A stretch of DNA of 63,833 bases, filler included, from Craspedostauros australis (lineage: Eukaryota): assembly GCA_030167865.1 (NCBI GenBank). It is 10 parts of 10 records of this genome, joined end to end, with 100 filler letters (N's around TTAATTAATTAA, not from the genome) between each part and the next. Parts side by side here need not be neighbours in the genome. Positions count along the whole stretch, not along the records: positions 9,019 to 14,503 come from JALAGF010006337.1; 9 more parts are not named here. One strand, 5' to 3'. Under the pieces are notes generated by a model. That model saw only the letters and a list, made by a program, of their open reading frames with translations, was not told the DNA's origin and made no database searches. Positions 1 through 61,455 of this stretch are shown here, one piece after another. Positions within the stretch are counted from its first letter, which is position 1. Each line of letters opens with the position of its first letter. Both the position numbers and the translations under genes were made by a program.

Positions 1-317
1 GTCATGGATGATGCCCTTTCTGAGTTGTTCTAGTCCCTGGCTGACACATGCCATGATCTCCAGATGGGGTGATCATCAATGTGTTGGTCATCATCTTCCT
101 TCACATGATTTAGATATCGTGGCCTTTTCTTGATTCACAGAGGACAGGCTTGTTTTCTTGGTAGGACTGAGGTCATTCCCGTGTGATTCGTGTCGTGGTT
201 GGAATGGATAATATTCAAAGGTGTGACGAATAATATCCAAAGGTGTGACAAATAATGTTGGGAGTTGCGGCAATCATGGGTATCTTTCCGACAGAGTCGT
301 ACCCTCGATTCCTGACA
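1..317 (-). mobile_element. Probable LTR or repeat insertion starting TGTCAGGAATC (runs off the window)
   Basis: Starts with TG exactly where the PS-repeat coding pattern stops. The same TGTCAGGAATC start recurs at 12825 and 60945 (+). Confidence 0.4.
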
Positions 318-1961
318 GGAGGGCAGTGCAGACGGCGTCTCGGACGGAACCCGCGATGGAGTGTCTGACGGAGAAAATGAGGGCGTCCAAGAGGGCGAAA
401 TGGTTGGGGCGCTGGTTGGACTGGACGTGAGAGGTGTGGGGAAAGGAGTGGGAGAAAAAGTCGGAGAGTCTGTGAGCAGGGTATCCTTGCCAATACAGTA
501 CTCCTCCACTTTTTCACCAGTAGGATTGCTCCCGGAGCTGCTGCCTCCCTCAGGACAGGCTCCATCGATATCGCCAATGAAGTAGAATTCATCAGGGCTG
601 CACTCGTCCTTCGTCATGCATCCCCTGCAGCCTTCAACACTGCCGCATCCATCAGGAGGGACGATGATGTCGGTTCTCATCCTGTCACTGAAGCCCATCT
701 TCTCGCATGACCCGTCGGCAGCGCAACCACCAGCACCAATGGTCAGGCTGCTTGCGCGCTTGCCAGCAGTACCATAGTTGACAGTGGAATGGGCATCCTT
801 GCAGGCATTGCTGCCAACGCACGCATTCTCACCGATGTCAATGTGGCTGCGGATGCGGATGGTGGCCTTCTGCACGACGCGGCGTCCAGCTGACTTGCAT
901 GCGTCTGATCCGATGCATGCACCAGAATGGATAGTCACATCACCATGGGAGCGGCGTCCTACTCCCTCACAAGATTGAGGGGTGGTGCATGCCATCTCAC
1001 CGACGAAGGTGACACCTGTGATGAAGGGATTGATCTCGTTCTCATTTATCAACTCGCATGCACTCGCGCCAGTGCAGGAGGAATCGAGGATGAGGGGATT
1101 GGGGCCCATATCCTTGCATGCGCTGTCACCAGTGCATGCTGTGATGGCGATGGTCATGAATGGAGGAGAGTTGGAGGCGGAACCGGTGACAGAGGTGCAT
1201 CCCGAGGGTCCTTGGCAGCATGGGTCTGCGACGGGAGGTGACTTGGCCATTCCAATGGTCATGCAGGCCTCCTCCATTGCATCCGCTCGCTCGGTGACGA
1301 GAAGCAGGTTGGTGGCAGCGACCAGGGCCAATTGGCCAGCAAGGATGTTGCTGGATGCGTACGTATTGAAGAGCTTGCGAGCAGCTCCTTCACCGAGGTC
1401 TCCTGCACATCCAAAGAAGTTCTGAAGCTGCTCGGATTCCTTGACGGCGCTGATGGCTTCGCGGCAGGATGGCTTGTTCGCATCGCAGATGATGGTCTTG
1501 GTGCTTACCTCTTGTGATGAGAGGATGGTGGCACCGTCCGGCTTGCAAGCGACTTCGATGGTCGCATCGAAGGGCTCTGGGTCAGAGGCTGGTTGAGTGG
1601 TAGGCGGCATTGAGGGCATCTCAGCTGGAGGGCCCGTTGGTGGTCCGGTCGGTTCATGCGTCGGCGAGGTAGTCGGAGGACCTGTGGGTCCAGCAGTCGG
1701 CGATCCAGTCGGCAACGCGGTTGGCGCAGAGTTCTCGGGAGTACCCGGGTTGTCTGTGGGAGGCTCTCGTTCGGCCTTGTTTTGTTTCGCCGCCTTTGCG
1801 TTGTCATCAGCGCCGGCCTTGAGGGCGCGGATCCTGTTCATCGCCGTGCGGAGTTCTTTTGTTGGATCCACGGGGGTCCGGTTACCACGGAGCACGGCAT
1901 GAGTCAACACCATGTCGGAGAGGAAGAGCACAGCCACGATGGCTGCCTTCATGTTGATCAT
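318..1961 (-). CDS. Secreted Cys-rich / Pro-Ser-Thr mucin-like cell-surface protein (family member 1). The 3' end is probably interrupted by an insertion at 317; the ORF reads through to a stop at 135.
   Basis: Signal-peptide-like MINMKAAIVAVLFLSDMVLTHA, PT-rich linker, a helical Cys domain, repeated xACxGxxAC motifs, then PS/PT repeats. Aligns closely with the paralog at 59342-60691. After PSETPSALPS the protein becomes unrelated sequence starting at TGTCAGGAATC (minus strand). Confidence 0.8.
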
Positions 1962-4900
1962 GTGGATCATGGTTGCTTGGTGGTTGCTGCTTGTCGGTTG
2001 CTTGGATTGCGCACTGCAATTCTTTTTCGTGTTCGACACGGAGAGAGCAGCGCAGAGTAGAGCAGTGTGGATTGCGGGCATATGTACTCGTACCGGCGGG
2101 ATACGAGAGGTGTGGGATTGAGTTGAGTTGGGCAGAGCAGAGCGGAGTTGGAGTCGATGACACAGTATGCCACCACCATGCAAAGCAAGCGCATGATCGA
2201 AACGACAGGCGTGGGGGACGCGTGACATCATTACGCATCACACCTCCCATGACGATGGCAGCTGATCCGATGGGAGCGTCCTCCCAAGATGCTGCCGGTG
2301 TTGCTGATGATCCTGACGTGTGCACCTGCTTGAGGCAGCACGCTGTGTCGGGCAGGACGAGTGCTGCGAACAAATCCTCCCGTCGTTGGCTCCGCGCCAT
2401 GCAGGGAAATGGTCATCTTGCAAACCAGCATCTGCAATTGCTCGATGAGCGGGACGCACCTTTGGTTTGTATCTGGCTTTGGCCGAAGAGAGGCTTGTGA
2501 TCACCTGGCAATGCCTGTCGATTGCTGTGTGGTGATGCTGTGCTTCGGAGTCCAATCTGTTCGTCGATTGTTTTTATGAGAGATGTTGTGTGGATGTTGT
2601 TGAAGGCAACGAAGTGATTTTCACGGACGCAAATCCACATGCACATGCAGTGAGAGACGCAGAGAGGAATAGTGCGATGGGCACTGTGGTATTGTTGCTG
2701 CATCAACGACAGACGTATACTCCTCTCTCCACTACTCTGCTCATGTGTGCACGCACCCACTTGTGGAGTCGAGTATTTGGAGGAGCATTGCTCATTCATT
2801 CATTTGTTTGCTCGTTCTTTCATCCGATCCTTCATCTCTTCAGCTCAGTCCACCAGCGTGATCCGCACCAACGACGACTGGTTCCAGTCCTGTCGGTGTC
2901 CACTCATTTCTCGATGTTCTCTCGGTGAGGCTGTGGTCACGACCGCCTCCGAAAGAGCAAGAAACCAGCAACTTCGCGAACAGGAACTGTCGTGTTGAGA
3001 TTTATTGACATCGGTCGGAAGTGCGAGTTTGTCGAGATTTATTGATCCATAATAAAGGAACAATGACAGTTCTGTCTAACAAGAAACGAAAGCAAAACCA
3101 TCACATCACACAACCACCCAAAACAACAAGGAATTATGAACCGGCGTCGACTCTGTCCACCCCACGAAAGAGTATTTATTGTGTTGTTCTCCGTGACAGC
3201 TTTGTTGCCCCCTGTCATTGATTTGCGTCACGGAGAAAATCCGGTATCGGAAGGTTGATCACATCAGTGTTGGTGGTCTGTACGGAATGAGCGATCGAAC
3301 CATAAATCCCCTCAGAGAGCCCAAATTCTGTTGGGACGCAACAACACCCCAGCTTCTGTTTGTTATCGTCCGCTGAAGTTGATGTCCATTCTGCAGTCAA
3401 TGCCACCGTGGGGTGGAAGACAGAAACAGACAGGAAAAGAGAGGGCGGAGAGAGAACGAGAGAGGGAGAGAGAGAGAGAGACCATTGTGTTGCATCACCA
3501 TATTCGCCTGTTCTCGTATGGTAAATGCTTCAACAGAACAGTCCTCTCGATCATTCCAAACACACGTTCTGTCTCTGCGAGAGCAGCGACAGTCGTACCA
3601 GCATCATTGTAACAACAAAAGTAGCGACATTGACGACGGCAATGCCAATGGCAGCGCATCATGAGCGTGTGCGCGATGAGAAGCACAACCAAGACCATGA
3701 GCACGACCAACCTCAAATTCGTTGCAGCGTGCGTCATTCGTGATTTCTGTATAGGGTTCTCTCGACGAAGATTAAACAAGCCTGACCTCGGAGAAACGCA
3801 AACGTGAAGGGAGGCTTGTGCGCCTGACGTCCACAAGTGACGTCACCAGACGAGGAAAACGGGAAGCGGTTGTGGCAACATCCCAGCCCCTACGAGGCGT
3901 AGCAATTCCGACAATTGAAAACCCGCAACGAACCATTAATACTCCAGACTGAGAGACAGACAGACAGAGAGCGGTGCCAGATCAACTCACGTTTGTTGAC
4001 AAAATACGGCACAGCGGATGCGCTGGTCGATCCGCACGTGTTTAGTGCAATGCATGATGCTTCGCTCCGACGTTGAGTGATGTCTCTCCCTCTCAAACGT
4101 TCTGGACTTTGCTCGAGATGACTATTGGATACTTCACGAGGAACCACCTCATTCGACAACCGAATCGATGGACACGATGGCAACCGCACACACAGATTCC
4201 ATTTCAATAGACAAGTTTCGCATTCCACTCGGAGGACCTCAGACGCCATGTCACATGCGAGCAATTCGATCGAGTCGACCAACACTTTGAAATGGACATT
4301 CTAACTTGTTGTCTCCGATGTCCAAGCCAAGCACATATCTATAATCCTTATAATCTCCTTATAAATGATTAACCGATACATTCTTGGGTTAGACCCTGTT
4401 TTCAGTTTTATGGATGGCTGAATGTGTTCATTCTAGCCACATGTGTCCAACAGCACAAAACTCGTTGGTTTTTGCCGAAGGTTCTATGATGTAGTTGAAG
4501 TTCATCTAAAGAACAGACTACTTTCCACTTAGTGTATCCTGTGTCGCACTATGAAATTGTTTTTGGCGCGTAAATGTTGGGGCGAAACCTTCCACCTACA
4601 AATACGAAAAACTCCTATTCTCCCTCCTTCTCCCACTCTTACTCACGAATCACTGCTGATTCAAAACTCACTTGAATCACCGAGATCAATGTACTCCGGG
4701 AACTATATGCTCCTCTGAAATCTCGTGTTGCACCTAACTCTGATTCCATTGTCAGCCATGTCAACTACCGACTTAACTCGACGACAACAAGGAGATCCTC
4801 CCTGCTTCAACATGAGCAGGGAATCTAACACCAATTCGTGTCGCCTGACAACCTGCGTTCTCAACCATGACTTCAATCAAGATGTCAAGCCTTTGTACTC

Positions 4901-6905: not shown

Positions 6906-7891
6906 ATCGGAGACTCTGAAGATGTTCTTGCCAGTTCCGACCTCGACATCGAGAGTGGTGACACGGGCGATGATGAAGAAGCACATGGTCACGCAGATCT
7001 GACGTCCGATCATGAATCCTGGAAGGTTGCGTCCGTCACGCGGAAGAGGAGCTTGCAGGTCTTGCGGGCCATTGGGTGGTCTCCACGCTCCTCCTTTGGA
7101 AGCTTGGCGACAGCGAAGAAGGCGATCTGCATACCCTCGAGCATACCCACGATGGACATGAAGAGGAAGAGGAGGATGCCAACCATGGCGTAGCACAGGA
7201 TGGCGAGGGAGATGAGGATGCGGCCCCAGTAGAAGAGGTTCTGGGCACCGTCACGTGGTGGTTCCTTCGACTCGATTTCCTTGCCGGAGGCCCAGACGAA
7301 GAACATCTGGACGAGGTAGCACGAGTGCAGAAGTCCAGAGAAGTCGATGGCGAGGGCGACATAGAGGGTGAAGACGGCGAAGAAGTTGTTGACGCAGTCA
7401 AGCATGCAAAGGGAGGCGTTGACTTGGGAGTTGAGCTGTCCGGCTTGAGCGGCCATGAGGATCATGGCAGCTCCGGATCCGAGGAAGATCTGGATGATGA
7501 TGTCTGGGAGTCCGAAGACTTCGGCGTCGGCGAGCGGGGCACCGCACTGGTTGATGGTGAAGACCATGAGGAGGACCATGAACTGACGTCCTATGAGGTA
7601 GTGATCGAGGTTGTCACCCTTGTGGGCGAGGGAGGTGCACTTGTGGCTGGTTGGGTGGGATTCGACGTAGAGGTCGCGGTCGACTGGTGGGAGACCGACG
7701 AGAGAACCCTGTCCTCCCTCCGCCATGTTGAGCCAGACGAGGGTGGCGATCATGATGACGACGGCGACCACTGGGTGGACCTCGGACGAGACCTTGGTCT
7801 ACTCATTGAAGATGAGTCCGCAGACGATGGTGATCGAGAAGATGAAGAGTCCGGTGGAGTACACCGACTTGACGAGCTGAATGGGATCCAT
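6906..7891 (-). pseudogene. SIT: Silicon (silicic acid) transporter pseudogene
   Basis: All four GXQ motifs are present (EGGQ, GRQ, EGMQ, GRQ), as is CMLD. Lesions: in-frame TAG at 7799-7801 (FNE*TKV), an apparent internal deletion after LAILCYAM, a frameshift near 7040 (LFR then DGRNLPGFMIGRQ in another frame), and 3' truncation by an LTR-like repeat. Confidence 0.92.
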
Positions 7892-8446
7892 CTTGGCTGT
7901 TGTTGTTTGTTGCTTCTTGTTGCTGCGATGCATTGCAGAGATTGCAATGGTTGAAATTGTGAGTGATGCAAAGTCAGGTTCAATGAATGTCGTGAAGGCA
8001 TGTGTGGTTGTACGTGGTCGTATGCTGTCGGTGGAACGCATTGGTTTCGAACAAAACGGATGTGAAACGATCGCATGGAGACGCGCACACATTGAGGACA
8101 AAGCGATTTGTGGCGTGATTTTGACACCATGGCAGAGAGTAGACTGCTCAACGCTCTGCGAACACAAGATGATGATTGTAGAGTGGTTGATTGTGTATTG
8201 TATTTTTTGTTGTATTCTATTGTATTCTATTGAGTGTATTCTATTGTATTCTATGTTCTATGTTCTATGGTGTATGGGGTGCTGTATGGTTGCTGTGTAG
8301 ATGGTTGCTGTATTGGTGTTGGTGCTCGGTCGTGATGAGATTCACTTCCTTGCGTGAAAAATTGCGTGTGGAGATGTGCGAGAATGTATGTGCACGGGGA
8401 TGCGTGAGGATTCACAACAAGCCTCGTCGTGCTGCAGCGCATTGGT

Positions 8447-8918
8447 TTATGCCATGACACTGTCATCCGAAGACTGAAGACGAGCCATGAAGAGGTCGGT
8501 CATGCGGTTGCCGCCCTGAAGCTTCGCAGACTTCACGATGCTTGACACATCCTTGTCCCAGATCTCCTCGTAAGACTTGATCAGTCCGGACACTGGGCAG
8601 CGCTTCATGACGACGGTTCCGCTCAGGAAGCACTTGGGCGAGAATGGACCGCGGAATGTCAAGTCCTCCTCGAAGCGGAAGGTCACGGCGTGCTTGGTCA
8701 CCGAAAGGGTGTCCTCGATGAGTCGCGACTCGCATTCAGCTGCGTCAAAGAGCATGCGGCAGCCGCGGACCCATTGCTCGCGGTAGTACTTGCCGTCAAG
8801 GTCGGATCCGTCCTTGAAGGTGGCCTGCTCGTCATAGATGGATTTGGTGACATCGGCGGTGACGAGCGACTTCTTGTTGACGATGTCGCTGATGATGATC
8901 TGTGCCAGTTGCTCGTCC
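8447..8918 (-). CDS. 3' fragment of an NTF2-like / DUF2358-type protein (5' end lost at contig edge)
   Basis: Open frame from the gap: LVTADVTKSIYDEQATFKD...FRFEEDLTFRGPFSPKCFLSGTVVMKRCPVSGLIKSYEEIWD, a pattern I recognise from DUF2358-type proteins. Codon usage is strongly coding-like. Confidence 0.6.
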
Positions 8919-9018: not shown

Positions 9019-10255
9019 TGAGATGAACATCGTCAATGGCAGATGAACATCGTCAATGGCAGATGAACATTGTCAATGGCAAATGAACTATCTGTCAACA
9101 TCGAATGAACTATTGTTAACACATTCCAACTACAGGAGGATGGCACAAGTCCCATGAAATGGCTGACTTGTGGGGGAGGAGGGGGAACTACACCATTCCA
9201 ACTACAGGAGGATGGCACAAGTCCCATGAAATGGCTGACTTGTGGGGGAGGAGGGGGNNNNNNNNNNNNNNNNNNNNNNNNNNNNNNNNNNNNNNNNNNN
9301 NNNNNNNNNNNNNNNNNNNNNNNNNNNNNNNNNNNNNNNNNNNNNNNNNNNNNNNNNNNNNNNNNNNNNNNNNNNNNNNNNNTGGCACAAGTCCCATGAA
9401 ATGGCTGACTTGTGGGGGAGGAGGGGGAACAACACCATTCCAACTACAGGAGGATGGCACAAGTCCCATGAAATGGTTGACTTGTGGGGGAGGAGGGGGA
9501 ACAACACCACCAACTGTGATACTCACACATCCACATGCTCACACACACACACACGCTGCCACACCATACAACCAGCCACAACACACAACAACACGTGAGA
9601 CCGTGATGCAACAGTCAACACCAAATGAACTATCTGTCATCATCAAATGAACTATCGTCAACATCATTCCAACTACAGGAGGATGGCACAAGTCCCATGA
9701 AATGGCTGACTTGTGGGGGAGGAGGGGGAACTACACCATTCCAACTACAGGAGGATGGCACAAGTCCCATGAAATGGCTGACTTGTGGGGGAGGAGGGGG
9801 NNNNNNNNNNNNNNNNNNNNNNNNNNNNNNNNNNNNNNNNNNNNNNNNNNNNNNNNNNNNNNNNNNNNNNNNNNNNNNNNNNNNNNNNNNNNNNNNNNNN
9901 NNNNNNNNNNNNNNNNNNNNNNNNNNNNNNNNNNNNNNNNNNNNNNNNNNNNNNNNNNNNNNNNNNNNNNNNNNNNNNNNNNNNNNNNNGGAGGATGGCA
10001 CAAGTCCCATGAAATGGCTGACTTGTGGGGGAGGAGGGGGAACAACACCATCAACTGTGATACTCACACATCCAGGTGCTCACACACACACACACTGCCA
10101 CATGATACAACCAGCCACAACACACAACAACACGTGAGACCATGATGCAACAGTCAACTCCAAATGAACTATCTGTCAACATCAAATGAACTATTGTTAA
10201 CACATTCCAACTACAGGAGGATGGCACAAGTCCCATGAAATGGCTGACTTGTGCC
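9019..10255 (+). repeat. Higher-order tandem array: 20-22-bp ATGAAC repeats + 72-bp units + CA-rich linker, repeated with ~540-bp period
   Basis: 72-bp unit CATTCCAACTACAGGAGGATGGCACAAGTCCCATGAAATGGCTGACTTGTGGGGGAGGAGGGGGAACWACAC (e.g. 9122 and 9194). The linker at ~9510-9620 recurs at ~10050-10160. Copy number is obscured by N gaps. Confidence 0.95.
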
Positions 10256-11900
10256 CATGTCAAGGTGTGTTGGGCCTATGGAGAGATCATTCGGCGATTC
10301 CCGTCTTGGAGAGACATTGCCTACGCAAAAGGAATTGGAGCAGTGAGATTGAAATCAGCCACATACGCTCAGATCGAACTGAACCTCAGGGGCGTCCAAA
10401 TGAACAGCTCACAGGACGTGCTCCAGGCGGAACCGATCATGCTGGCCGACATTCGCAGATTCCAGGAGTGCGCTGCACCCAATCCAGAAACGTACAGGAA
10501 CATCGCCCTGCTCTACGTTATGTTCGAGACTGGAGCCAGGAGCGTCACATTTTGTCAACCAAGTCAGAAGGCTCCCAGGAAAGATCACTTGACAGGCCAA
10601 TGGACCATTGCATATCCAAATGTGAAGGTTGGAGAAAGCCACCTTGACTACAGGCATGTCATATTGTTGCAGGAGGCATCAACTGCATTTGAACGACTTT
10701 GGAGATGTCGCCACAACGTGGATTGGACACAGAAAGGGAACACATTCTGCATCCAGTCGCCCAATGCAATATACAAGTTCCTTGGGCACCTTTGTCTGAG
10801 CGCAGGCTACCCCAAGCAGTACTTCTCTGCGCATTCTGGACGAGCTGGTGCAATAAACACAGCCATATGCGATGCCATTCTGGCTGGGAAGCCAGTTTCT
10901 GTTGGCCAAGCAAATGCAACAATTCTGGGAGACTTCGCCACCAACTCTGAATGCATGAGATGGTACTACAGGGACGTGTCGGACACCATCGAGCAGTACA
11001 AGGGGCACGCAAAAGGACACGTCGAATCTGACTGTGTTGCAACTGCATCGCAATTTGCACAACATGCTGCAACCAATCACTCAACAGCACCCATCTTGTG
11101 GGGTGTCCTACAGCAATGGCGTATACAAGGAGGCTGTTGCAATTTGCAACGAACTTGATTCCTCTTGGCAATTGGACGATTGGTGGCGCGCACAGGGCAA
11201 CTCCTGGCGGACCAATGAGGTGTTTGAAGAAGCTGGCCTTCGGCTTGAGGTCAGTGGCCGCCTTCACAAACAGGTGCTGCAATGCACAGAGCTGTACACG
11301 TCAAAGCAATGCAGCCATCCAAGAAGAATCGGCAATATCATCAAACTCATGATTGGAGCCGGTGAGTTGAAAAGGGAAATGCTGATCCCCAACCACTCAA
11401 TCAACGTGTCTCCACATTTCCTACGCTACTTCCTCCTTCCTCAACAGCCATCAAAGGAGGCTCGCCAAGCACCAAGGCCAAGACAACGATATGATGCATC
11501 CAATTCAACCAGCCTTGACCTGTTCCACCAACACTTATCCAGTCGAGCATGTGAGCGAAACATTGGCTTCATCTCAGTTGGAGACAAACAGTACAATCTC
11601 GCAAAATTGAGCACAGCGCAGTGGAAGATGCTGAGACGACGCGAGCAGCCGAAGGTGGTAATCGATGCATCTGAGTTCTACTCATCAAACCCAGCTGCTG
11701 TCCTTCCGCGGGAGGTGCATTCCAATGCTGCTGTCAATCAGACCAGCGCGAAAACGATTGGTCTCTCAACTGACAATCCTCCTGTCCATCACAATGAGAC
11801 ATCAGAGATGGATGATGCCATGGATAACAATCCTGGAGCAGCAGAGATAATTGATTTGATCAGCATTGCTGTGGAAGAAGAAACAGAGGGAGATATTTAA
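10217..11900 (+). mobile_element. Tyrosine recombinase gene (Crypton/DIRS-Ngaro-like), with a +1 frameshift near 11005 and the N-terminus missing or in an upstream exon
   Basis: Box I RNIALLYVMFETGARS, Lys in PNVKVG, box II YFSAHSGRAG (HxxR) and LGDF...MRWYY nucleophile region. The coding pattern continues in ORF 11034-11900 after a GGGG run. Confidence 0.8.
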
Positions 11901-14030
11901 GCAAAATAGTATATTCGTGAATTGTGATGTGATGTACGAGTTCGGTGTGGTACACTGACAACGTGTCGCCTTGTGTGAAGGAGCAATGGAGCAAAACCAG
12001 ATCAAGTGGCGATTTTGGAGCGGAGGCAATACCTGGAGCTGAATAAAGCAACACTGTAGTGAAGCAGGTGACACGAAGGCGAAACGATCGATATGCAACG
12101 AGAAACCAGCTTCAGCAACTCACCTTGGGTGAAAAGAAAAGCGCATGTTTTGCGCGGCGTCGACGTTCCAGTCTTTCAACGACCGTGTTGGGATTGACTG
12201 GAAAACATGCTGCAGCATGAGGCCGGAGGAATGTTGGCTGTGGCTGCTTTGTTTGTGCAATATTGACAGCAGCATCACTGTTTTGGAGATCTGGTCATGG
12301 AACAATGAGGAAGGCGATTGTTGTTGTTGTTGCTGCATTGGTGACTCTTCAGCGACTGCAATGGAGTAATCTGGAGTCAATGAGAGGAGAGTGGAGAATG
12401 GATAACATGTATTTTGCTATTTTGTTGCAACGTGTCATGCCCTGTCCTGTCCCGCTCTTCTCTGCCCAGTGCTGCACTGTTCTGTTCTGCTGTTGTTGAC
12501 GATGATGTCTGGTTGCACATTGTGACATGCGAGGATAGGATGGTGTACAAGGAGGGCACGCACATAGATGCAAAATGCCAAATGAGATGGTGTGATGGAA
12601 AAGAGGAACAGTGGACCGCAGCAGCAGAGTGTTGTGAGAAATGGCGAGCAGCATCCACAATCATTCCCTCCCAACCAATCATTTGAGCCACAACGCATCA
12701 AAGTCGAAGTCATTGTCGTTGCTGACTGCGCTCGCGCGAAACATTGACGAAGTGACAAGCACGGTGTTTCCATATACGATCGTAGTCATACTTACCGAGT
12801 ATGTACGGAGTGCATCTCGAGGTCTGTCAGGAATCGGGTGTTATGAAACACGTGATTGCCGCACCTCCCAGGAGTATTTGGAGTCAAGTGTTGTGAAACA
12901 GTAAATTACCGCACCTCCCGATGTGACATTATGAGCATCAAAATGTGAGGTACATGATGAGGCGAAGGCTGTCCTGAGACGAATGGCGAATGACAAGTGT
13001 GGATTGAATGGTGATGACTGTGAAGGATAATGCAAACATCCAATACACTATTGCATGTCACAAGGGGCAGCGATGTTGTGTTCGTGACCAGCATGAAGAC
13101 ACACATCACTGNNNNNNNNNNNNNNNNNNNNNNNNNNNNNNNNNNNNNNNNNNNNNNNNNNNNNNNNNNNNNNNNNNNNNNNNNNNNNNNNNNNNNNNNN
13201 NNNNNNNNNNNNNNNNNNNNNNNNNNNNNNNNNNNNNNNNNNNNNNNNNNNNNNNNNNNNNNNNNNNNNNNNNNNNNNNNNNNNNNNNNNNNNNNNNNNN
13301 NNNNNNNNNNNNNNNNNNNNNNNNNNNNNNNNAGGGATGGATGCCTCAACACGAGAAATCGTGTGAGAAATCGTGAGAACAACGGTTCAACCGTGAGAAC
13401 AGTTGTGTCTCTTGTGCTTTGTGAAAACACGAAGATGATGATCCGACTGAGTGAAACGAGTCGGTAACGCCTGTGAATCAATGATGTCTATGCTGACGAA
13501 ACTATTGGTAGAGGGCAGGAGATGGAATATCTGAGATGCATGATGAGATGCANNNNNNNNNNNNNNNNNNNNNNNNNNNNNNNNNNNNNNNNNNNNNNNN
13601 NNNNNNNNNNNNNNNNNNNNNNNNNNNNNNNNNNNNNNNNNNNNNNNNNNNNNNNNNTATGTATGCTTTGGCAAATGGAATTGAAAGTGATGAAGATGTT
13701 GTACTCACAGTTCCAACAATGCAATAACATGAATAGGTAACCAGATACTACTAGTAGAGACTGGGGTACCCCGGATTTCCAACAGAGGTCGGTGGCAGCG
13801 GAAGATAATGATGTGCAGAGGTGAGCGCGTAATAGTGATATGGAATACGAGTACTCATCTGCAAGGCACGGGAATTCCGCTGAAACTGTCACACGTTCGC
13901 ATTCGACCACTCTGACTAATCATCAACTTCGTACGTGACTTGATTGGAACGACTCAACACTCGGAGTATATCCACAATGATAACGTATATAACCGTTTAG
14001 TGTTTGAAATCCGAACACCATCTACCCCGT

Positions 14031-14315
14031 CAACAAACGTTGAAAGTGCTCAACAAACGTTGAAAGTGCTCAACAAACGTTGAAAGTACTGAACAAACGT
14101 TGAAAGTACTGAACAAACGTTGAAAGTACTCAACAAACGTTGAAAGTACTCAACAAACGTTGAAAGTACTNNNNNNNNNNNNNNNNNNNNNNNNNNNNNN
14201 NNNNNNNNNNNAACAAACGTTGAAAGTACTCAACAAACGTTGAAAGTACTCAACAAACGTTGAAAGTACTCAACAAACGTTGAAAGTACTCAACAAGCGT
14301 TGAAAGTACTCAACA
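14031..14315 (+). repeat. 20-bp minisatellite (CAACAAACGTTGAAAGTACT)n
   Basis: At least 11 visible near-identical head-to-tail units around an N gap, with no spacers. Confidence 0.95.
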
Positions 14316-14603
14316 CACATCGAGAGTAGTCATTGTTGGTATACGATCCCATGACAGTGCAGCAACAATCTCCCATGTTTGCGGCCTTCGTTCAGTCAGG
14401 GATATTCACAACAATGACATCACACATACACACACACACACATCACGCATCGTCTCCCAATTATCACAGTTATGTCAAAGAATCGTTTCGCGCCGTTACA
14501 AACNNNNNNNNNNNNNNNNNNNNNNNNNNNNNNNNNNNNNNNNNNNNTTAATTAATTAANNNNNNNNNNNNNNNNNNNNNNNNNNNNNNNNNNNNNNNNN
14601 NNN

Positions 14604-16789: not shown

Positions 16790-19274
16790 CGGCTAAATAT
16801 ATTTACCGCGCCGAGAAAAATGCCCTTGGGGGCGAGATTGGGCAAACATTGTCCCCAATGCATGCCCCTTCGCCCACGAAACAATACTATTCGGTGGATT
16901 GGTGACACAAGAATTGATCCCGACGCAGCATCTCCCATTGCAAGTTGCCCTTACCTCGCTTGCGCTGCCTGCGAACAGCAAGCGGTTTATGGCGAGAGCC
17001 GAGAATAGAGCCCGGGTCAAGACTTGATGGGTGGAAACGCCGCCTGTGAAGAAAGACTGAGCAACAGCGGGTGTATTGGCTCCAGGAGGTGAAGCACCAT
17101 TGCACCCAATGATGCTCCTGATCAATAGACTCTGTTTGGGGTCCAAGGCCTCAACTGCAGTGACAAAATCTGCACACACACCTTCAGAAGCGCCACAAGT
17201 GACCATTCCTGGAACTTCATTGAATGTTGAATCGACATCTCCGGGCGTTGAAAGACATCCGACCTTCAACATAAATATCCGCGTTGGCATTGATGATGGC
17301 ATATCGGACGGAATGCTGGATACAGACGGTAGACCAGATGGGGCATCAGATGGAAGTTGAGAAGGAATGCCGGACGGTGATATGGATGGAAAGTCGGATG
17401 GCAGACCTGACGGCGTCATGGTGGTAGGAATGATGGCAAACTGGACGGTAAGTCCGATGGCAAGGATGAGGGCAGATCAGATGGTTGGTCTGACGGTAAA
17501 TTTGATGGAACTTCCGACGGCATCCGAGATGGGAGACCTGATGGTAGATCTGATGGTAGATCAGATGGCAGGTCCGAGGGCAGATCCGACGGCAAGCTTG
17601 ATGGTAGATCTGACGGAAAGCCCGAAGGCAGGTCTGACGGCAGATCGGACGGCGTTTCAGACGGCGTTTCAGACGGCAATCCTGACGGTAGATCTGATGG
17701 GAGCTCGGATGGCATACCCGAAGGTTGACTCGATGGAAGATCTGATGGTAAATCGGACGGAAGCTCGGACGGCAGATCAGACGGTAAGTCCGAAGGCAGG
17801 TCTGACGGCAGGTCCGACGGCAGCTCGGACGGCAATCCTGACGGAAGGTCTGATGGTAGATCTGACGGTACATATGATGGGAGCTCAGATGGCATACCCG
17901 AAGGCTGACTCGATGGAAGATCTGATGGTAAATCGGACGGTAAGTCCGAAGGCAGGTCCGATGGCAGATTTGACGGCAACTCGGACGGCAATCCTGACGG
18001 AATGTCTGATGGCAGCTCGGAAGGCATATCCGAAGGCTGACTCGATGGGAGATCTGATGGTAGATCGGACGGCAGCTCGGACGGAAGCTCGGAAGGAAGA
18101 CTTGATGGTAGATCTGACGGAAGGTCCGATGGTAGATCTGACGGTAAGCCCGAAGGCAAGCTTGATGGTAAATCTGACGGCAGATCCGACGGCAATCCTG
18201 ACGGAAGGTCTGATGGTAGATCTGACGGTACATATGATGGGAGCTCAGATGGCATACCCGAAGGCTGGCTCGATGGGAGATCTGATGGTAGATCGGATGG
18301 CAGCTCGGAAGGAAGACTTGATGGTAGATCGGACGGAACACTTGATGGTAGGTCTGACGGTATCTCGGATGGGNNNNNNNNNNNNNNNNNNNNNNNNNNN
18401 NNNNNNNNNNNNNNNNNNNNNNNAGATCTGACGGAAGGTCCGATGGTAGATCTGACGGTAAGCCCGAAGGCAAGCTTGATGGTAAATCTGACGGCAGATC
18501 CGACGGCAATCCTGACGGAAGGTCTGATGGTAGATCTGACGGTACATATGATGGGAGCTCAGATGGCATACCCGAAGGCTGGCTCGATGGAAGATCTGAT
18601 GGTAGATCTGACGGTAAGTCCGAAGGCAGGTCCGATGGCAGATCTGACGGCAACTCGGACGGTAATCCTGACGGAATGTCTGATGGCAGCTCGGAAGGCA
18701 TATCCGAAGGCTGACTCGACGGAAGATCTGATGGTAGATCGGACGGAAGCTCGGAAGGAAGATCTGATGGTAGATCGGACGGAACACTTGATGGTAGGTC
18801 CGACGGCATCTCAGATGGCAGATCGGACGGCAAGTCTGACGGTATCTCAGACGGGAGGCTTGATGGTCCACTAGACGGCAAGCCTGATGGTAGATCTGAC
18901 GGCATTTCGGACGGAACCTCAGACGGAAGATCGGANGGAATCTCAGATGGAATATCTGAAGGTGATTCCGATGGTAGATCCGATGGCAGACTGGAAGGCA
19001 TTGCAGACGGGAGGCTNGACGGAGCCTGAGAGGGATCCTCGGANGGAATTGAGCTGGGACCCTGAGACGGGACCTCTGACGGAACCTGGCTTGGATTGGA
19101 TGATGCAAGAGGTGTGGGGAACGGAGTTGGAGAGAACGTGGGACAGTCTGTTGGAAGCGTGGCTTTGCCCACGCAGAACTCATCCACCCTCTCGCCCGTT
19201 GGACTGCCGTCGCTTCTCTTTGGACACGCTCCACCCGCATCCGAGATGAGATACACCGCATCGAAGTTGCATTC
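16790..19274 (-). pseudogene. 3' part of a Cys-rich/mucin-like family member with a very long (PSDL)n tract and a second Cys/helical domain; frameshifted
   Basis: The start ECNFDAVYLISDAGGACP..PTGERVDEFCVGKATLPTDCPTFSPTPFPTP matches member 1. Then ~1.7 kb of 12-bp PSxL repeats. Frameshifts near 17420, 16880 (IVF/VGEGACIGDNVCP) and probably ~16840. Confidence 0.75.
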
Positions 19275-19726
19275 NNNNNNNNNNNNNNNNNNNNNNNNNN
19301 NNNNNNNNNNNNNNNNNNTTAATTAATTAANNNNNNNNNNNNNNNNNNNNNNNNNNNNNNNNNNNNNNNNNNNNCATTTGCCGTCAGCGATTGGGTGGAC
19401 AGAGATCTTATCCTGATCACCGACGTGCCTTCGGACCTCAATGCCGCGGACGTGTGCACCAAACAGACGCCTGTGGTTCTGTTCTATCGGCATACGGATC
19501 TGCTCATGGGACGCATACCGCCTTTCTACGTACAGCCATGAGTGCTCCCCATGGAGTGTGGTGATCCCTGTCTTCTCTACGACAGAGTCGATTATTTCCG
19601 CTAGCTTACGCCAGCGTGGGGGGGGGGTGTTGGCATCCGTACACCCGTACGATGACAGACGTCATCAGCAGCAGCAGCAGCGAACACAACAAAAGTCATC
19701 ACCACTCTGTGGCCATAAATCCATCA

Positions 19727-24390: not shown

Positions 24391-26415
24391 TCACTTCTCT
24401 TGGCTCCGCTTTCTCTTTCTCGCCGCCAGTCTCAGCTGTCCAGAGGGTGATTTGATGGAACGCACGAAACCCACCAATGTTGCACGATCCATGTATGAAT
24501 CCACTTGCGCACTACCCTCATCTTCATCCACAACCTTGTACAGCTCCATCATAGACATGTGACTGTACTCGTCATCAACACCATCGCTGACTGTTCCTCC
24601 ACTGCAAAGGACTTGAATGCCTCCCATCAGTTGAGGCTGTTGAGTGATCTTGTTGAAATCTGGATGAGCAAGACAAGCCTGTGCATTTTGAGATACCACT
24701 CTCATTGCCGCATCTTCCAACACTGAACAGCTGTGTTGATGGGCGAATATCAGCGTATCAATCATGGTGTCCTTTGTGAGGTGCTTGCGAGCCAACTCCG
24801 CTTCAAGAACAAGCTTGAGTCGCCAGAAACCGAACTCGTCGGCCACAAGGATCAGCTGCTGCAGATCGTGTTGTCCATTGAGGATGGGAGTTGGCTGGTC
24901 ATCGCCATCGTCATGATCGCTCTCATCGAAGGATATCTCCCCCTTGTAGATGCATTCGATGACATGGCGGACATATTTGGGTTGGAGGTCAGGAAGAGCC
25001 ACGGTTGTTTGGATGGAGTCAGTGATCGGGTCAGCGACAGGGTCAGGAACATGATCAGTGAGAGAATCGTCCCATGAAGATGACAGCGAGGATGACGATG
25101 ACGGTGGGGATGATGGCTTGGTCAAAGATAGATGGTGGATTCCAGAGTCGATCAATGTTTGAATCGATGGGACGGTGACCACAAGGACTCCGCTGTTTGC
25201 CTTGATCGGTTGTTGTCGGTCGCCTTGTCCACACAGGAAAACGATGTCTGCGTTCGCCTCGGTACGAACAGCGCTGCAACGATCTTGGCCGATGTTGATG
25301 TTGGTCGTTGTGTTGATGTTCGACTTGTTGTGCTTGGGTGTTGCTGCGGCAGTGCTTGTGATGCTTCGTTTGTGAAGCTGTAGTTGTGAGCTCAGGTGAC
25401 TGAGACGCTCCATGATCGATTTCATCATGTCGATCTGATGTGTTGGATCGATCACATCGAGAGGTGTTCTGTTGTCGTTGTTCTTGATGTCGATATCGAT
25501 GTTAGCGTTGGCCGATTCGATGAGGCACTTGACGCAGTCAGAATGACCAAAGCAGCATGCGCGATGAAGGGGAGTGTCACCATAGTTGTCTTTGCAGTTG
25601 ACGTTGACCTCACACGATTCAATGAGATACTTGACACACTCGAGATGGTCATTGCGGCATGCCAGATGAAGAGGAGTGGAACCATAGTTGTTTTTGTAGT
25701 TGGCGTCGACCTTCGCAGAGTCGACGAGATACTTGACACACTCGAGATGACCATTGTGGCATGCCAGATGAAGAGGAGTGTTATCATATTCGTTTTTGAA
25801 GTTTGCATCAGCCTTCGCAGAGTCGACGAGGTACTGGACACACTCGAGATGACCTTCGGAGCATGCCAGATGAAGAGGAGTGTCATCATCGTTGTCTTTG
25901 CAGTTGGTGTTGGCCTTCGCAGAGTCGACGAGGTACTTGGCACACTCCAGATGACCATTGGAGCATGCATCATGAAGAGGAGTGCCACCATCGTAGTGTC
26001 TGCGGTTGGTGTCGGCCTTCGCAGAGTCGATGAGGTACTTGACACACTCGAGATGACCTTCGGAGCATGCCAGATGAAGAGGAGTATTACCATACTCGTT
26101 TTTGAAGTTGGCATCAGCCTTCGCAGAGTCGACGAGGTACTTGACACATCCGAGATGACCATTTTGGCATGCCAGATGAAGAGGAGTGTTACTATCTTCG
26201 TCTTTGCAGTTGGCATCGGCCTTCGCAGAGTCGACGAGGTACTTGACACACTCCAGATGACCATTTTGGCATGCCAGATGAAGAGGAGTGTCACCATCGT
26301 CGTCTGCGACCTTGTTGACATCAACGCCTTCCTTCTGCTTCTTCCATTCCTTCAACACAGACACATCACCTGCCTCGGCAGCATCAAGGAGTTGTTGGTT
26401 CGAAACATCCACCAT
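24391..26415 (-). CDS. Ankyrin-repeat + BTB/POZ(-BACK-like) protein, putative cullin-3 substrate adaptor
   Basis: Eight ~34-aa TPLHxAC..GHLECVKYL repeats plus caps. BTB-like ADIVFLC...LPDLQPKYVRHVIECIYKG...LILVADEFGFWRLKLVLE, then DTLIFAHQHSCSVLEDAAM. Confidence 0.88.
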   Translation of the reverse strand: MVDVSNQQLLDAAEAGDVSVLKEWKKQKEGVDVNKVADDDGDTPLHLACQNGHLECVKYLVDSAKADANCKDEDSNTPLHLACQNGHLGCVKYLVDSAKADANFKNEYGNTPLHLACSEGHLECVKYLIDSAKADTNRRHYDGGTPLHDACSNGHLECAKYLVDSAKANTNCKDNDDDTPLHLACSEGHLECVQYLVDSAKADANFKNEYDNTPLHLACHNGHLECVKYLVDSAKVDANYKNNYGSTPLHLACRNDHLECVKYLIESCEVNVNCKDNYGDTPLHRACCFGHSDCVKCLIESANANIDIDIKNNDNRTPLDVIDPTHQIDMMKSIMERLSHLSSQLQLHKRSITSTAAATPKHNKSNINTTTNINIGQDRCSAVRTEANADIVFLCGQGDRQQPIKANSGVLVVTVPSIQTLIDSGIHHLSLTKPSSPPSSSSSLSSSWDDSLTDHVPDPVADPITDSIQTTVALPDLQPKYVRHVIECIYKGEISFDESDHDDGDDQPTPILNGQHDLQQLILVADEFGFWRLKLVLEAELARKHLTKDTMIDTLIFAHQHSCSVLEDAAMRVVSQNAQACLAHPDFNKITQQPQLMGGIQVLCSGGTVSDGVDDEYSHMSMMELYKVVDEDEGSAQVDSYMDRATLVGFVRSIKSPSGQLRLAARKRKRSQEK

Positions 26416-28111
26416 GTTGAGATGATGGTCGATGGTAGATGATTGTTGAGCGTTTGTTAGTTGGATGGTGCGTGAACGATGAGTGGACGATGCGTGGACG
26501 ATTGTTGATTGATTGTTGATTGTTCGATTGTTGGATGATTGGTTGCCGAGGATGATTTTATGGCATGATGCCTGCTTTATGAGATGAAATGGTCAAGATC
26601 CCGATTGTGTGTCCCAATTCCACCAGTGCAACGACGACCACGTGAACGAGTACGAATACGAGTATGTACGCGTAGTTGTATGATGCCGTGTGATGAGCAG
26701 CATGCCAACGCCTCTTGTTGGTGGATTCGAGCGTGGATTTCGATACCTGGAGTAGGACTCGCACAACGTTGTTGTCTCCTTGCCTCTGTCTTTCATTGTC
26801 TTTCATTGTCTTTCTCTCTCCTTCTGTCGCTTTCTTTCTGTGTTGGTCTCCGTCCCTTGATCACCATCCCTTGATTGCCATCCCACGATCGTGTCCTGCT
26901 TCGGTACGAGTACGATCTATGGAGTGTTGTGGAGGAGGATCACCAGCGTGGAGTCTCAACACCCGTCGTGTCCTGGTTTTGTTGAGTCATGTGGGGTGCC
27001 AGGAAGTGGAGTTGGACGAGAACACTCTCCGCAAGACGATCTTTGTGGGTTGTGGGAACGAAACGAGGGATCTTGTGTGATGAGAACGGAGTATCTTCGA
27101 CTCGTGGGATCGTTGAAACAAGTTGGGACAGACTAGCTCCGGGACTGACCCGGGACTTGACTGTCCATTCCGCGTACACGGTATTCGGTACCCAAGACCG
27201 ATACTGTGATGAAAGGCTACCGCACACACGATGTGTAGTTGAACTGCAATCCATGCGTTGTTCACCCTCCAGCTCATGCACCCCTGCCACCTGTCCAACT
27301 CGTCACCCTGACGAACAAGCACCCATCTTGAAGCATATCCATGTGAATGGATCAGCTGCTGTTCTACGGGTAATGATACTGGAGGACTGTATGTGTGCAG
27401 GATCACCACGGTATGCTGCTGCGCAACAAAGAACGGCTGAAGTACGACAGCACGAACCCCACCTTTTTACTCGATCGTCCTATCAATAGCAAGCTTAACA
27501 CATAAAGCAAGCAATCAGAAACAATCTTCACAGCTTACTTCCGAGTCTACTACAGTTACATCATCGTCTGATACAGCTTTGTCCTCAACATCAAACGGCG
27601 TCAAAACCGGTTGAAGGACAGACCATCCTCCTGACAACGTGCGAAAGACACAGAATACCAACTAAACAGAACAATGACCAGTGTCACCAATCGAAAGCAT
27701 GAAGAAGGCGATCGATCAATCGATGTGACACACATCCAGTTCGAACTGTTCGGGCAATGTTGTCATTGGTTCATTTGGTCATGAGAGCACGAGCCATGTG
27801 ACACAATTGACTGTGTCTCGTGATGCATCCTCATCCATGTGAATGTGGTTGTGCTCCGATCCACACAAATAGAATACCAACTAGAGAGTGCTCTGTATTT
27901 GGTATAGTAGTATATTATACAATAGAATAGAACACATAGTGATTCTTTGTAGTCTACGGCTTTGTGTTCATGAAGCAGCGTAGCCTTTGATATTCGTCTG
28001 ATGCCAAGTGCATAGATCGTTCGTGGCAACGTGAATTGCCTTTCTGTCATTGCGAAGCCACTGTGCCGAACGCTGCTGAGTCGAGTACCATTGTTCGGAC
28101 CAGCTCACATT

Positions 28112-59341: not shown

Positions 59342-60691
59342 GCACTCCGTCTTCGTCATGCATCCCCTGCAGCCTTTGACACTGCCGCATCCACCAGGAG
59401 GGACGACGAGGTCGGTTCTCATCCTGTCACTGAAGCCCATTTTCTCGCATGACCCATCGGCGGCGCAACCGCCAGCACCAATGGTCAGGCTGCCTGCATA
59501 CTTGCCACCAGTCCCATGATTGACAGCGGAATGGGCATCCTTGCAGGCATTGCTGCCGACGCACGCGTTCGAACCAATATCGATGTGGCTGCGGAAGCGA
59601 AAAGATGGTGCTGATTGCTCCACACGACGGCCAGCGGAGTTGCATGCCTCTGACCCAATGCATGCTCCAGTCTGGATGGTGACATCGCCATGAGCACGGC
59701 GTCCCACTCCCTCACAAGATCGAGGGGTGGTGCATGCCATCTCACCAACGAAGGTGACTCCCGTGATGGACGGGTTGATCTCGTTCTCATTCATCAACTC
59801 GCATGCACTGTCTCCAGTGCAGGAGGAATCGAGGATGAGGGGATTGGGGCCCATATCTTTGCATGCGCTGTCGCCGGTGCATGCTGTAATGGCGATGGTC
59901 ATGAATGGAGGAGAGTTGGAGGCGGAACCGGTGACTGAAGTGCATCCCGAGGATCCTTGGCAGCATGGGTCTGCGACAACAGGCGATTGCATCGCCGCGA
60001 CGTCCGCACATACTGCCTTCATTGCGTCTGGTCGTTCGGTGACGAGAATCGCGTTAGTGGCAGCGACTAGGGTCAATTGGCCAGCAAGGATATCGCTGGA
60101 TGTATACTTGTTGAAGAGCTTGCGAGCGGCTCCTTCACCGAGGTCTCCTGCGCATCCAAAGAAGTTCTGCAATTGCTCGGATTCCTTGACGGCGGTCACT
60201 GCCTTGCGGCAGGATGGCTTGGTGGCATCGCAGATGATGGTCTTGGCGCTTGTCTCTTGTGGCAAGAGGACGGTGGTGCCGTCTGGCTTGCAAGAAACTT
60301 CGATGGCGGAGTCGAAGACGGCTGGGGGAGCTGATGGTTTGACAGTTGGTAGGAGAGTCGGTTGAGAGGTCGGCAAGGCAGTTGGCTGGGTGACAGGTGT
60401 CATCGAGGGCGATTCGGAACGCAAGTCGGTCGGCGGTCCAGTAGGCAATGCGGTTGGCGCGGTCGTTTCTGCAGCAGCCGGGTTTTCAGTGGGTGGCACT
60501 TGTTTGTTCTTGTTGCCCTTGTTGGTCTTCGTGTCGCCGTCGGCGTCCCTGAGGATGCGGGTCTTCTTCATCGTCGTATGGAGTTGCTCGGTTGGACCCA
60601 CGGGAGTCCTGTTGCCGCGGAGCACGGCGTCGACCGTTGCCATGTCGGCGAGAGCGAGAAAGACGACAAAAGATGCCTTGGTGTAGATCAT
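59342..60691 (-). CDS. Secreted Cys-rich/mucin-like protein (family member), 5' half only, cut at the contig end
   Basis: Signal peptide MIYTKASFVVFLALADMATVDA, then long stretches identical or near-identical to 318-1961. Confidence 0.85.
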
Positions 60692-61455
60692 GGTTGTTCG
60701 GTACTTGTTGGTTGGTGATTGATGGTTCAGGGTTGATCGTTGTTTGTTTGGTGTGATTGGTTGACAACTGGGATGGATTTATGAGATGAAGAGTTTGATT
60801 TGTTGGTTGTTCGGACCATTTTGTTTGCGTGTTCGATGTTGTGCATGAGGCAACATGGTACAGGAATGGCATGATGTCTAGGAGGCCATAGCTCCTCTGC
60901 AGCTGGGGCCTTCACAAACTCGAACCTTCACAACTGGCGACATCTGTCAGGAATCACAGGTACGATGAAACCGTGTGAAGATCAGCATCGTGTCAGTGGC
61001 ACACCACATGCAGATCAGCAACATGTAAGTGGCACACCAGGTGAAGAGAATTGTGCGAGTGGGACAATGAATGCAAAGTGTGAATACAAAAATGAAGAAG
61101 GGAATTTGTGCNNNNNNNNNNNNNNNNNNNNNNNNNNNNNNNNNNNNNNNNNNNNNNNNNNNNNNNNNNNNNNNNNNNNNNNNNNNNNAGTGAGTCGACC
61201 AACCGTTTGTAAAGTAGAGTGGCACTTTTTCTTCGATTACAACCAAACTAAGCATACCAACCTACTCATTATAGTGTCCATAGCAACAGAAAAATTACCC
61301 AGAATCTCAAAGTCCATAGTTTAGGTTTTATGGACCCGTCAATGTGCGCATTTTTGGACTACTCCTAAACTGGGCGATAGACATCCGACAAACTCGATCC
61401 AAAATAACGTGTTTGTGTTCTTGGTTTTGGCGAATTTGTTCACATTTTGAATTAA

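What the first reader, a model, noticed from the sequence alone, without database searches (positions are those of the whole stretch)
9019..11900. Tyrosine recombinase fused to a higher-order array of palindrome-containing 72-bp repeats
Seen: every 72-bp unit holds the inverted repeat CACAAGTC-N13-GACTTGTG, with an inner CCAT-GAA-ATGG hairpin. The last copy (10223-10255) has 10-bp arms, GGCACAAGTC/GACTTGTGCC, and runs directly into an ORF with R-K-HxxR-Y recombinase motifs. Array copies diverge from the gene-proximal copy right after GACTTGTG. Known: tyrosine recombinases bind inverted arms around an asymmetric spacer, and eukaryotic ones occur in Crypton and DIRS/Ngaro elements. Inference: the array could be recombination sites amplified by repeated circle excision/integration at the element's own 5' end, a self-rearranging cassette. 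The 13-bp spacer is longer than the usual 6-8 bp, so this is a hypothesis. No reverse transcriptase is visible on the contig.
Basis: partly seen in the sequence, partly recalled or inferred. Interest (0 to 1): 0.72.

Follow-up and report, generated by a model that had tools for sequence, protein, structure and literature searches.

The report
Truncated recombinase fused to subtelomeric repeat
Chromosome ends in this alga carry a modular repeat with a conserved hairpin, and at some ends the hairpin is fused to, and supplies the start codon of, a shortened Cre-like recombinase gene; whether that enzyme acts on the hairpin is still open.

Summary
The palindromes and the recombinase are real. The protein folds like Cre and the window copy keeps R-K-H-R-Y, but it lacks the front of the core-binding domain, starts at an ATG inside the last palindrome, and is frameshifted. 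The array is not private to the element. It is a module of a telomere-adjacent repeat in a probable diatom. In 44 fetched contigs, 6 of 149 palindromes abut the gene, and 6 of 8 long telomere tracts lead straight into the repeat. Modules join arbitrary sequence at short telomere seeds with 0-4 nt microhomology, which points to break healing and recombination rather than site-specific excision. All six recombinase copies share one in-frame fusion and each has a lesion, yet variants shared between copies show purifying selection. A role for the hairpin is not excluded. It is about five times less variable than neighbouring modules. A sister variant with three compensated base pairs lies beside a paralogous recombinase. 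Two kinds of exchange map to its right half. Verdict: telomere-linked, Crypton-like recombinase genes captured by a subtelomeric satellite; the self-excising cassette is a minority reading.

The parts
9019..9121 (+). 20/22-bp tandem repeats (module r20) at the scaffold start; in telomere-bearing contigs this module follows TEL-D-C
9122..9257 (+). two 72-bp A units (cores 9144-9172, 9216-9244): left flank, palindrome, G-rich box
9383..9506 (+). two A units after an N gap (cores 9386-9414, 9458-9486)
9507..9664 (+). module B (CA-rich spacer), related by eye to the older ~185-bp subtelomeric satellite
9665..9800 (+). two A units (cores 9687-9715, 9759-9787)
9990..10202 (+). A unit (core 9999-10027) and module B after an N gap
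10223..10255 (+). gene-proximal palindrome with 10-bp arms; holds the start codon (10235) and the first codons M-K-W-L-T-C; folds as a 10-bp stem, 2-nt bulge, 4-bp stem and 3-nt loop
10235..11900 (+). YR-A: 5'-truncated Cre-like tyrosine recombinase with a conserved C-terminal domain; R 10538, K 10625, H 10832, R 10841, F (His/Trp slot) 10934, Y 10967; frameshift in the A run at 11011-11014
11901..12824 (+). 3' flank shared with other YR-A copies (about 95% with C6310); resumes at 13785 and is shared to about 13861
12825..13784 (.). TG...CA insertion (solo-LTR-like) with GAGGTC duplicated on both sides, absent from the C6310 copy

Best explanation
The array is the inner part of a modular telomere-adjacent repeat. 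Read from the telomere inward it runs (CCCTAA)n-D-C-r20-A-(B-A)n-E-short telomere seed. It is spread and reshuffled among chromosome ends by ordinary end dynamics: terminal breaks, telomerase healing at seeds, break-induced or microhomology-directed copying of another end, and unequal exchange. The arrangement is shown; the pathway is inferred. A Crypton-like recombinase gene family lives in the same subtelomeric blocks (shown for YR-A and YR-B). Once, a full-length YR-A gene was joined to the palindrome at a 6-bp look-alike (GCTGAC, the conserved Leu-Thr codons). This removed the front of the core-binding domain, and an in-frame ATG in the hairpin became the start (junction shown; history inferred). 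The fused gene was kept under purifying selection while subtelomeric exchange copied it to at least six places; the assembled copies are now decaying (shown). The hairpin itself is constrained, most simply as a promoter, protein-binding or single-strand element of the repeat (inferred). The recombinase is not needed to explain the array.
For: 156 pattern matches genome-wide against 4 for the control. Of 149 cores in 44 fetched contigs, 133 continue into the G-box, 6 into YR-A, 2 into a sister tail and 8 are cut; the left flank is canonical in 129 of 129 readable cases. Eight contigs hold 8 or more telomere repeats, all at contig ends; 6 of 8 run into D-C-r20-A and 2 of 8 into r184, another module of the same blocks. 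Of 35 module-end seeds (3-30 nt of telomere repeat), the 8 with an identifiable non-standard target share 0-4 nt with it; one target is the middle of a LINE ORF. Linkage between variants is gone beyond about 40 bp both across the palindrome and inside module C. YR-A has 6 residues before the column where the long homologues have 44-503, and no 5' half was found among 14 matches. YR-B reads G CTG AC in register with the site. Shared variants are 31 synonymous to 22 non-synonymous, private ones 40 to 102, p=2e-4.
Against: The 64-bp A unit is far less variable (pi 0.014, 157 copies) than modules B, C, D and E (0.06-0.10). A sister site has three base pairs changed on both sides, and all 4 copies lie just 3' of a YR-C paralogue. 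The YR-A fusion and the two A/C hybrid sites (C754, C6248) both cross over within the 10 bp right of the central base. The window contig holds no telomere tract, so its terminal position is inferred. Overall omega against three neutral models is only 0.64-0.83 (p 0.002-0.12). 35 of 62 gaps in array contigs have an edge in the A unit, so assembly may distort copy number, conservation and linkage.
Confidence: 0.6

Rival explanations
1. The palindrome is the cognate site of this recombinase family (11-bp arms around a 7-bp spacer TGAAATG, or a folded hairpin), and the enzyme helps join distal arrays to proximal blocks. The YR-A fusion would be an exchange with a site inside the gene, as in integrases split by their own attachment site (recalled: SSV1/pNOB8 type).
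For: Low diversity of the unit. Compensated arms in the YR-C-linked variant. Two independent junction types map to the right edge of the proposed spacer. M-K-W-L-T-C fits the family columns better than 95-99% of random hexapeptides. Purifying selection on the fused gene. Hairpin-type attP sites are described for phaeovirus recombinases (PMC12993054, passages).
Against: Perfect symmetry covers only the outer 8 bp; the three bases next to a 7-bp spacer are asymmetric, the reverse of loxP/dif (recalled). 0 of 129 left flanks are switched. No hot spot against the module C control. No reciprocal product. Module joins elsewhere are imprecise. Fold-back correction of an imperfect palindrome can also yield compensated arms, and the A and C variants represent one change, not many.
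Confidence: 0.22
2. The D-C-A-B-E unit is a non-autonomous terminal retroelement (Athena/Coprina-like). Its RNA ends in about two telomere repeats and is copied onto exposed chromosome ends; the hairpin is an RNA element and the recombinase genes are cargo.
For: Units read on the C-rich strand and end in TAAACCCTAA.. joined to varied targets with short microhomology. This polarity is what EN-minus PLEs use (PMC8557442, passages).
Against: None of 48 of the 102 RVT_1 matches read by eye looked PLE-like (LINE, gypsy, group II intron, TERT-like and DIRS/Ngaro-like, by recalled motifs). No hammerhead core in 316 kb by a strict pattern. No Rfam match at gathering level in 3 loci. At least three different module ends carry the seed.
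Confidence: 0.12
3. Much of the array structure (unit number, uniformity of the 72-mer, lesions in the gene) is a short-read assembly product over a collapsed repeat.
For: 35 of 62 gaps border the A unit; several contigs overlap at 100%; the window frameshift lies in a homopolymer.
Against: The fusion junction recurs in six contigs whose genes differ by 4-5%; the telomere-to-array order recurs in 6 contigs.
Confidence: 0.06

Closest known systems
CryptonS (oomycetes, Phaeodactylum; Kojima and Jurka 2011, PMC3212892, passages and supplement 1)
   Same: Recombinase-only, no reverse transcriptase, stramenopile host, extra conserved C-terminal region, low copy number.
   Different: No discrete 3-6 kb element with 5-7 bp terminal direct repeats was found; copies sit in subtelomeric duplication blocks; YR-A is 5'-truncated and starts inside a repeat. 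Direct sequence comparison with CryptonS was not possible.
TATE of trypanosomatids (PMC6681497, passages)
   Same: Tyrosine recombinase gene tied to telomeric hexamer regions, in tandem settings.
   Different: TATE carries gag and RT/RNase H, has split direct repeats and inserts at one fixed position in the hexamer; none of these holds here.
Telomere-inserting nimavirus recombinases (PMC10871703, passages)
   Same: A recombinase family associated with telomere repeats.
   Different: Those sit in 280-400 kb viral genomes inserted into telomere motifs; no viral genes were seen beside YR-A, and the joins here are imprecise.
Subtelomeric tandem repeats bounded by interstitial telomeres in Pyricularia (PMC8381367, passages); yeast Y' elements (recalled)
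   Same: Repeats at many ends, separated by short telomere tracts, reshuffled by breakage and healing; Y' carries a DNA-acting enzyme gene.
   Different: Here the linked gene is a tyrosine recombinase and the repeat supplies its start codon.
EN-minus Penelope-like elements Athena/Coprina (PMC8557442, passages)
   Same: C-strand polarity, short telomere repeats at the inner end.
   Different: No PLE reverse transcriptase or hammerhead motif found.

Membership tests
Tyrosine recombinase superfamily | lambda-Int/Cre catalytic fold | tested here: met
   AlphaFold model of the uninterrupted C6310 copy, pLDDT 88.6; Foldseek best hit Cre, E 2e-5, probability 1.0; 6 of 42 profile hits pass the Phage_integrase cut-off
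Tyrosine recombinase superfamily | R-K-HxxR-[H/W]-Y catalytic residues | tested here: met
   R102, K131, H200, R203, Y245 in 5 of 6 copies (C6310 has Leu at 203); Phe in the H/W slot where distant homologues have Trp
Tyrosine recombinase superfamily | complete core-binding domain | tested here: not met
   6 residues precede the column where long homologues have 44-503; no 5' half among 14 matches
Crypton (CryptonS) | recombinase without reverse transcriptase | tested here: met
   no recombinase-bearing contig is among the 102 RVT_1 matches; copia RT pieces on C6310, C5636 and C5564 are separate insertions
Crypton (CryptonS) | discrete element with 5-7 bp terminal direct repeats | tested here: not met
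   pairwise contig comparisons end at LTR insertions, repeats or contig ends, not at shared termini; the fragmented assembly limits the test
Crypton (CryptonS) | phylogenetic grouping and shared C-terminal region with described CryptonS proteins | not testable with these tools
   no named CryptonS protein was retrieved; Atlas neighbours include unnamed diatom and oomycete clusters at 0.96
DIRS/Ngaro/VIPER/TATE | RT-RNase H in the same element | tested here: not met
   ORFs of one DIRS/Ngaro-like RT contig of this genome do not match the recombinase profile
TATE | insertion at one fixed position of the telomere hexamer | tested here: not met
   seeds of 3-30 nt end at varied positions; targets include non-telomeric sequence
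EN-minus Penelope-like element | short C-rich telomere repeats at the inner (3') end | tested here: met
EN-minus Penelope-like element | PLE reverse transcriptase and hammerhead motif | tested here: inconclusive
   none in 48 of 102 RVT_1 matches read; no hammerhead by a strict pattern
Telomere-adjacent (subtelomeric) repeat | next to telomere tracts at several ends | tested here: met
   6 of 8 long tracts; not shown directly for the window contig
Tyrosine-recombinase recombination site | 11-13 bp inverted arms around a 6-8 bp spacer | tested here: inconclusive
   an 11+7+11 reading gives 8 of 11 symmetric positions, all at the outer end
Tyrosine-recombinase recombination site | exchanges concentrated at the spacer | tested here: inconclusive
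   two junction types map there; no hot spot against the control; 0 of 129 left flanks switched

The most novel reading that the evidence does not exclude
A telomere-linked tyrosine recombinase family acts on a hairpin site built into the subtelomeric repeat and helps shuffle or rebuild chromosome ends. Site and enzyme co-vary (A site with YR-A, C site with YR-C), and recombination at the site creates the enzyme's own start codon. This would be a host-level, integron-like end-remodelling system in a diatom.
Probability: 0.12. Interest if true: 0.85.

Novelty: new variant of a known kind. Interest (0 to 1): 0.52.

Why it matters
Eukaryotic recombinase-only elements are rare, and their sites are almost unknown. 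Here is a small, deeply diverged family (42 hits among 1.84 billion representatives) tied to chromosome ends, with a short candidate site that exists in two compensated versions. That makes a direct binding and recombination test possible. Even on the conservative reading it is a clear case of a subtelomeric satellite giving a start codon to a mobile-element gene that then stayed under selection. The searches and 119 of the held open-access library listed no paper whose title or abstract start describes telomere-linked recombinase genes in diatoms; subscription journals and Repbase were not searched.

Tried and rejected
Pfam on the window ORFs: no recombinase hit; one alignment member reached E 0.011. 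Word-based homologue searches: nothing. PDB by sequence: nothing. Metagenome loci: none confirmed, so the palindrome could not be sought beside homologues in other organisms. Sequencing runs: none was listed; expression, copy number and circles are untested. Rfam on 3 loci: only weak CA-rich matches. Hammerhead, twister, HDV, Helitron and SINE readings were considered by eye from recalled motifs and dropped. Loss of linkage across the palindrome first looked like a hot spot, but the module C control shows the same loss. A proposed empty site upstream in C6310 was rejected: the same junction occurs in 4 of 4 matches and is not recombinase coding sequence. The CRE-like LINE beside one seed is a broken target, not the mobiliser. 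CryptonS terminal words from the paper's supplement occur at the E-module end (TTACTG, and the reverse complement of CTGTAAG); this was treated as a lead only. Atlas search of the C-terminal domain: no usable hit. Earlier scan notes: none.

Full report
Setting. The window is ten scaffolds joined by linker gaps. The finding lies at the start of the scaffold spanning 9019-14503, which is contig C6337 of a 65.9-Mb assembly in 6734 contigs. A silicon transporter gene in the neighbouring scaffold (E 5e-118), TTAGGG telomeres and Atlas neighbours from diatoms and oomycetes point to a diatom.

Observation. All eight palindromes, the 72-bp period, the 10-bp arms of the last copy and the divergence after GACTTGTG are as described. 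Two N gaps hide the true unit number. As a single strand the site folds into an 8-10 bp stem, a 2-nt bulge, a 4-bp stem and a 3-nt loop (z -2.1 and -2.5 for two window copies).

The protein. Pfam does not see the window ORFs. A profile of ten in-genome rows found 42 relatives among 1.84 billion representatives, and 6 of the 42 pass the Phage_integrase cut-off. A model of the uninterrupted copy from C6310 (pLDDT 88.6) matches Cre best (E 2e-5) and phage integrases more weakly. The window copy keeps R102, K131, H200, R203 and Y245, with Phe in the His/Trp slot. A roughly 250-residue C-terminal region is shared with paralogues and has no usable Atlas neighbour. The genome holds six YR-A copies at 88-100% protein identity and several paralogue families at 35-40%. 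In a tree of 39 of the 42 rows, cut to the recombinase part (3 short rows dropped), YR-A groups with YR-B (96/90), next to unnamed assembly proteins.

YR-A is truncated. Only 6 residues precede the alignment column at which the long homologues have 44-503 residues; several library fragments have fewer. The only upstream ATG in the frame lies inside the palindrome. A search with the N-terminal part of YR-B gave 14 matches, all belonging to other paralogues or to a gene with the core-binding part only. The first codons M-K-W-L-T align without a gap to I-S-L-L-T of the family, and YR-B DNA reads G CTG AC in register with the site's GCTGAC. I infer one ancestral in-frame join at that look-alike. 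This also explains why the gene-proximal copy has the longest arms. None of the six copies is clean: the window copy has one extra base after the catalytic tyrosine, C6310 has Leu for the second Arg, and the other four have stops. Variants shared by two or more copies are 31 synonymous to 22 non-synonymous, against 40 to 102 for private ones (p 2e-4; without CpG sites 13/11 against 21/54, p 0.026). Over all variants, omega is 0.64-0.83 depending on the neutral model (p 0.002, 0.024, 0.12). This is the pattern of a gene selected in its source lineages and decaying in its present copies. An unassembled full-length source cannot be excluded.

The array is a subtelomeric repeat. A degenerate core pattern has 156 matches against 4 for the control. 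In the 44 fetched contigs that hold it, 149 cores continue into the G-box (133), YR-A (6) or a sister tail (2), or are cut (8); the left flank is the same in all 129 readable cases. Module mapping gives the order telomere-D-C-r20-A-(B-A)n-E-seed, with many rearranged versions. Eight contigs have 8 or more perfect telomere repeats, all at contig ends; six run into D-C-r20-A and two into r184, another module of the same blocks. YR-A always sits at the inner end of an array and reads away from the telomere side. A full-length YR-B (1600-codon frame) lies between two arrays on overlapping contigs, one of which ends in a telomere. The window contig has no telomere tract, so its position is inferred from module order.

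How modules join. Thirty-five module ends carry TAAA plus 3-30 nt of telomere repeat. Many are followed by the D start. For the 8 with another identifiable target, the shared sequence is 0-4 nt, and the targets lie inside modules or in the middle of a CRE-like LINE ORF. Telomeres were also added at seeds inside E and r184. Such imprecise joins fit break healing and copying between ends, as described for Pyricularia subtelomeres (PMC8381367, passages). They do not fit a recombinase that needs an identical spacer. The polarity also fits EN-minus Penelope elements (PMC8557442, passages), but no such reverse transcriptase was recognised in 48 of 102 RVT_1 matches.

Is the palindrome special? Evidence that it is: the 64-bp unit has pi 0.014 over 157 copies, against 0.062-0.101 for B, C, D and E. 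A sister site, TGCAGTC-N13-GACTGCA in the same flanking context, occurs in 4 contigs, each time just 3' of a YR-C gene in the opposite orientation. Three of twelve pairs are changed on both sides (one event, related rows). Two arrays end in an A-left/C-right hybrid site. Both that exchange and the YR-A fusion fall within the 10 bp to the right of the central base, where a 7-bp spacer would end. Evidence that it is not a recombination site: symmetry is perfect only at the outer 8 bp, whereas Kojima and Jurka give 11-13 bp arms and a 6-8 bp spacer as typical (PMC3212892, passages). No left flank is switched. The sister site is not an element boundary. Linkage vanishes across the core (mean r2 0.02, 26 units), but equally within module C beyond 40 bp (0.02-0.035, 45 copies). 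No reciprocal product exists in the assembly. In addition, 35 of 62 gaps have an edge in the unit, so short-read collapse may lower its apparent diversity.

Comparison. It works like a Crypton in gene content but fails the terminal-repeat test as far as the assembly allows, and it could not be compared with CryptonS proteins. It is not a DIRS, Ngaro, VIPER or TATE element (PMC6681497, passages). Telomere-associated recombinases are known from nimaviruses (PMC10871703, passages) and hairpin attP sites from phaeoviruses (PMC12993054, passages). A subtelomere-specific satellite is reported in Ectocarpus (PMC12477816, passages). The passages read from the Phaeodactylum telomere-to-telomere paper say nothing on such repeats (PMC9266582). 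Of supplements, only file 1 of PMC3212892 was read. Yeast Y', integron attC and partitioned archaeal integrases are recalled, not looked up.

Verdict. Real and unusual, but best read as a truncated Crypton-like recombinase captured by a telomere-adjacent satellite (0.6). A recombinase role for the hairpin has 0.22, with 0.12 for the full end-remodelling version. New variant of a known kind; interest 0.52.

Noticed in passing
L200:440-3085 (G000:C4492): 881-codon frame with only the core-binding part of this recombinase family (43% to YR-B) fused to a low-complexity and coiled-coil-like tail; looks like a domesticated DNA-binding derivative.
   Followed up: partly
L071:3-4649 and L072:1-3858 (C5878, C1369): YR-B has a tail of about 900 residues, acidic then with 21-residue Pro/Ala/Thr repeats, after the conserved part; upstream are 103-bp and 120-bp tandem arrays.
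   Followed up: partly
L079, L083, L084 (C5212, C299, C4886): 3'-truncated YR-B and another paralogue lie head to head in three contigs, with LTR-like insertions.
   Followed up: partly
L075:6035-6016 (minus strand; end of module E): A small inverted repeat TTACAG-GTTA-CTGTAA sits directly before the telomere seed; it contains words listed as CryptonS termini (TTACTG; reverse complement of CTGTAAG).
   Followed up: no
L075:6680; L166, L167, L168: A second fixed junction joins a T-rich, TATA-like stretch to the G-box in 4 contigs; an HMG-box-like frame (by eye) reads away from it in L166.
   Followed up: partly
window 14030-14315: 20-bp tandem array (12 or more copies, one gap) near the inner end of the scaffold.
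   Followed up: no
window 7010-7798 and 8447-8917 (minus): Silicon transporter gene in the preceding scaffold, next to a short ORF of no Pfam family.
   Followed up: no
window 135-2237 and 59342-60778 (minus): Two ORFs with weak DUF7640 hits (E 0.004 and 0.0008) on different scaffolds.
   Followed up: no
window 17346-19322 and 24391-26592: ORF with 12-bp-based low-complexity repeats; ankyrin-repeat BTB protein with 102-bp repeats.
   Followed up: no
L182-L184, L194, L195, L197, L198, L201; L185; L132: A DIRS/Ngaro-like RT family, a TERT-like RT and a group II intron-like RT (all by recalled motifs) among the RVT_1 hits; most others are long LINE ORFs.
   Followed up: partly
L074:4033-5616 and 7398-8783 (C6310): Two MATH-BTB genes just inward of the YR-A copy.
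   Followed up: no
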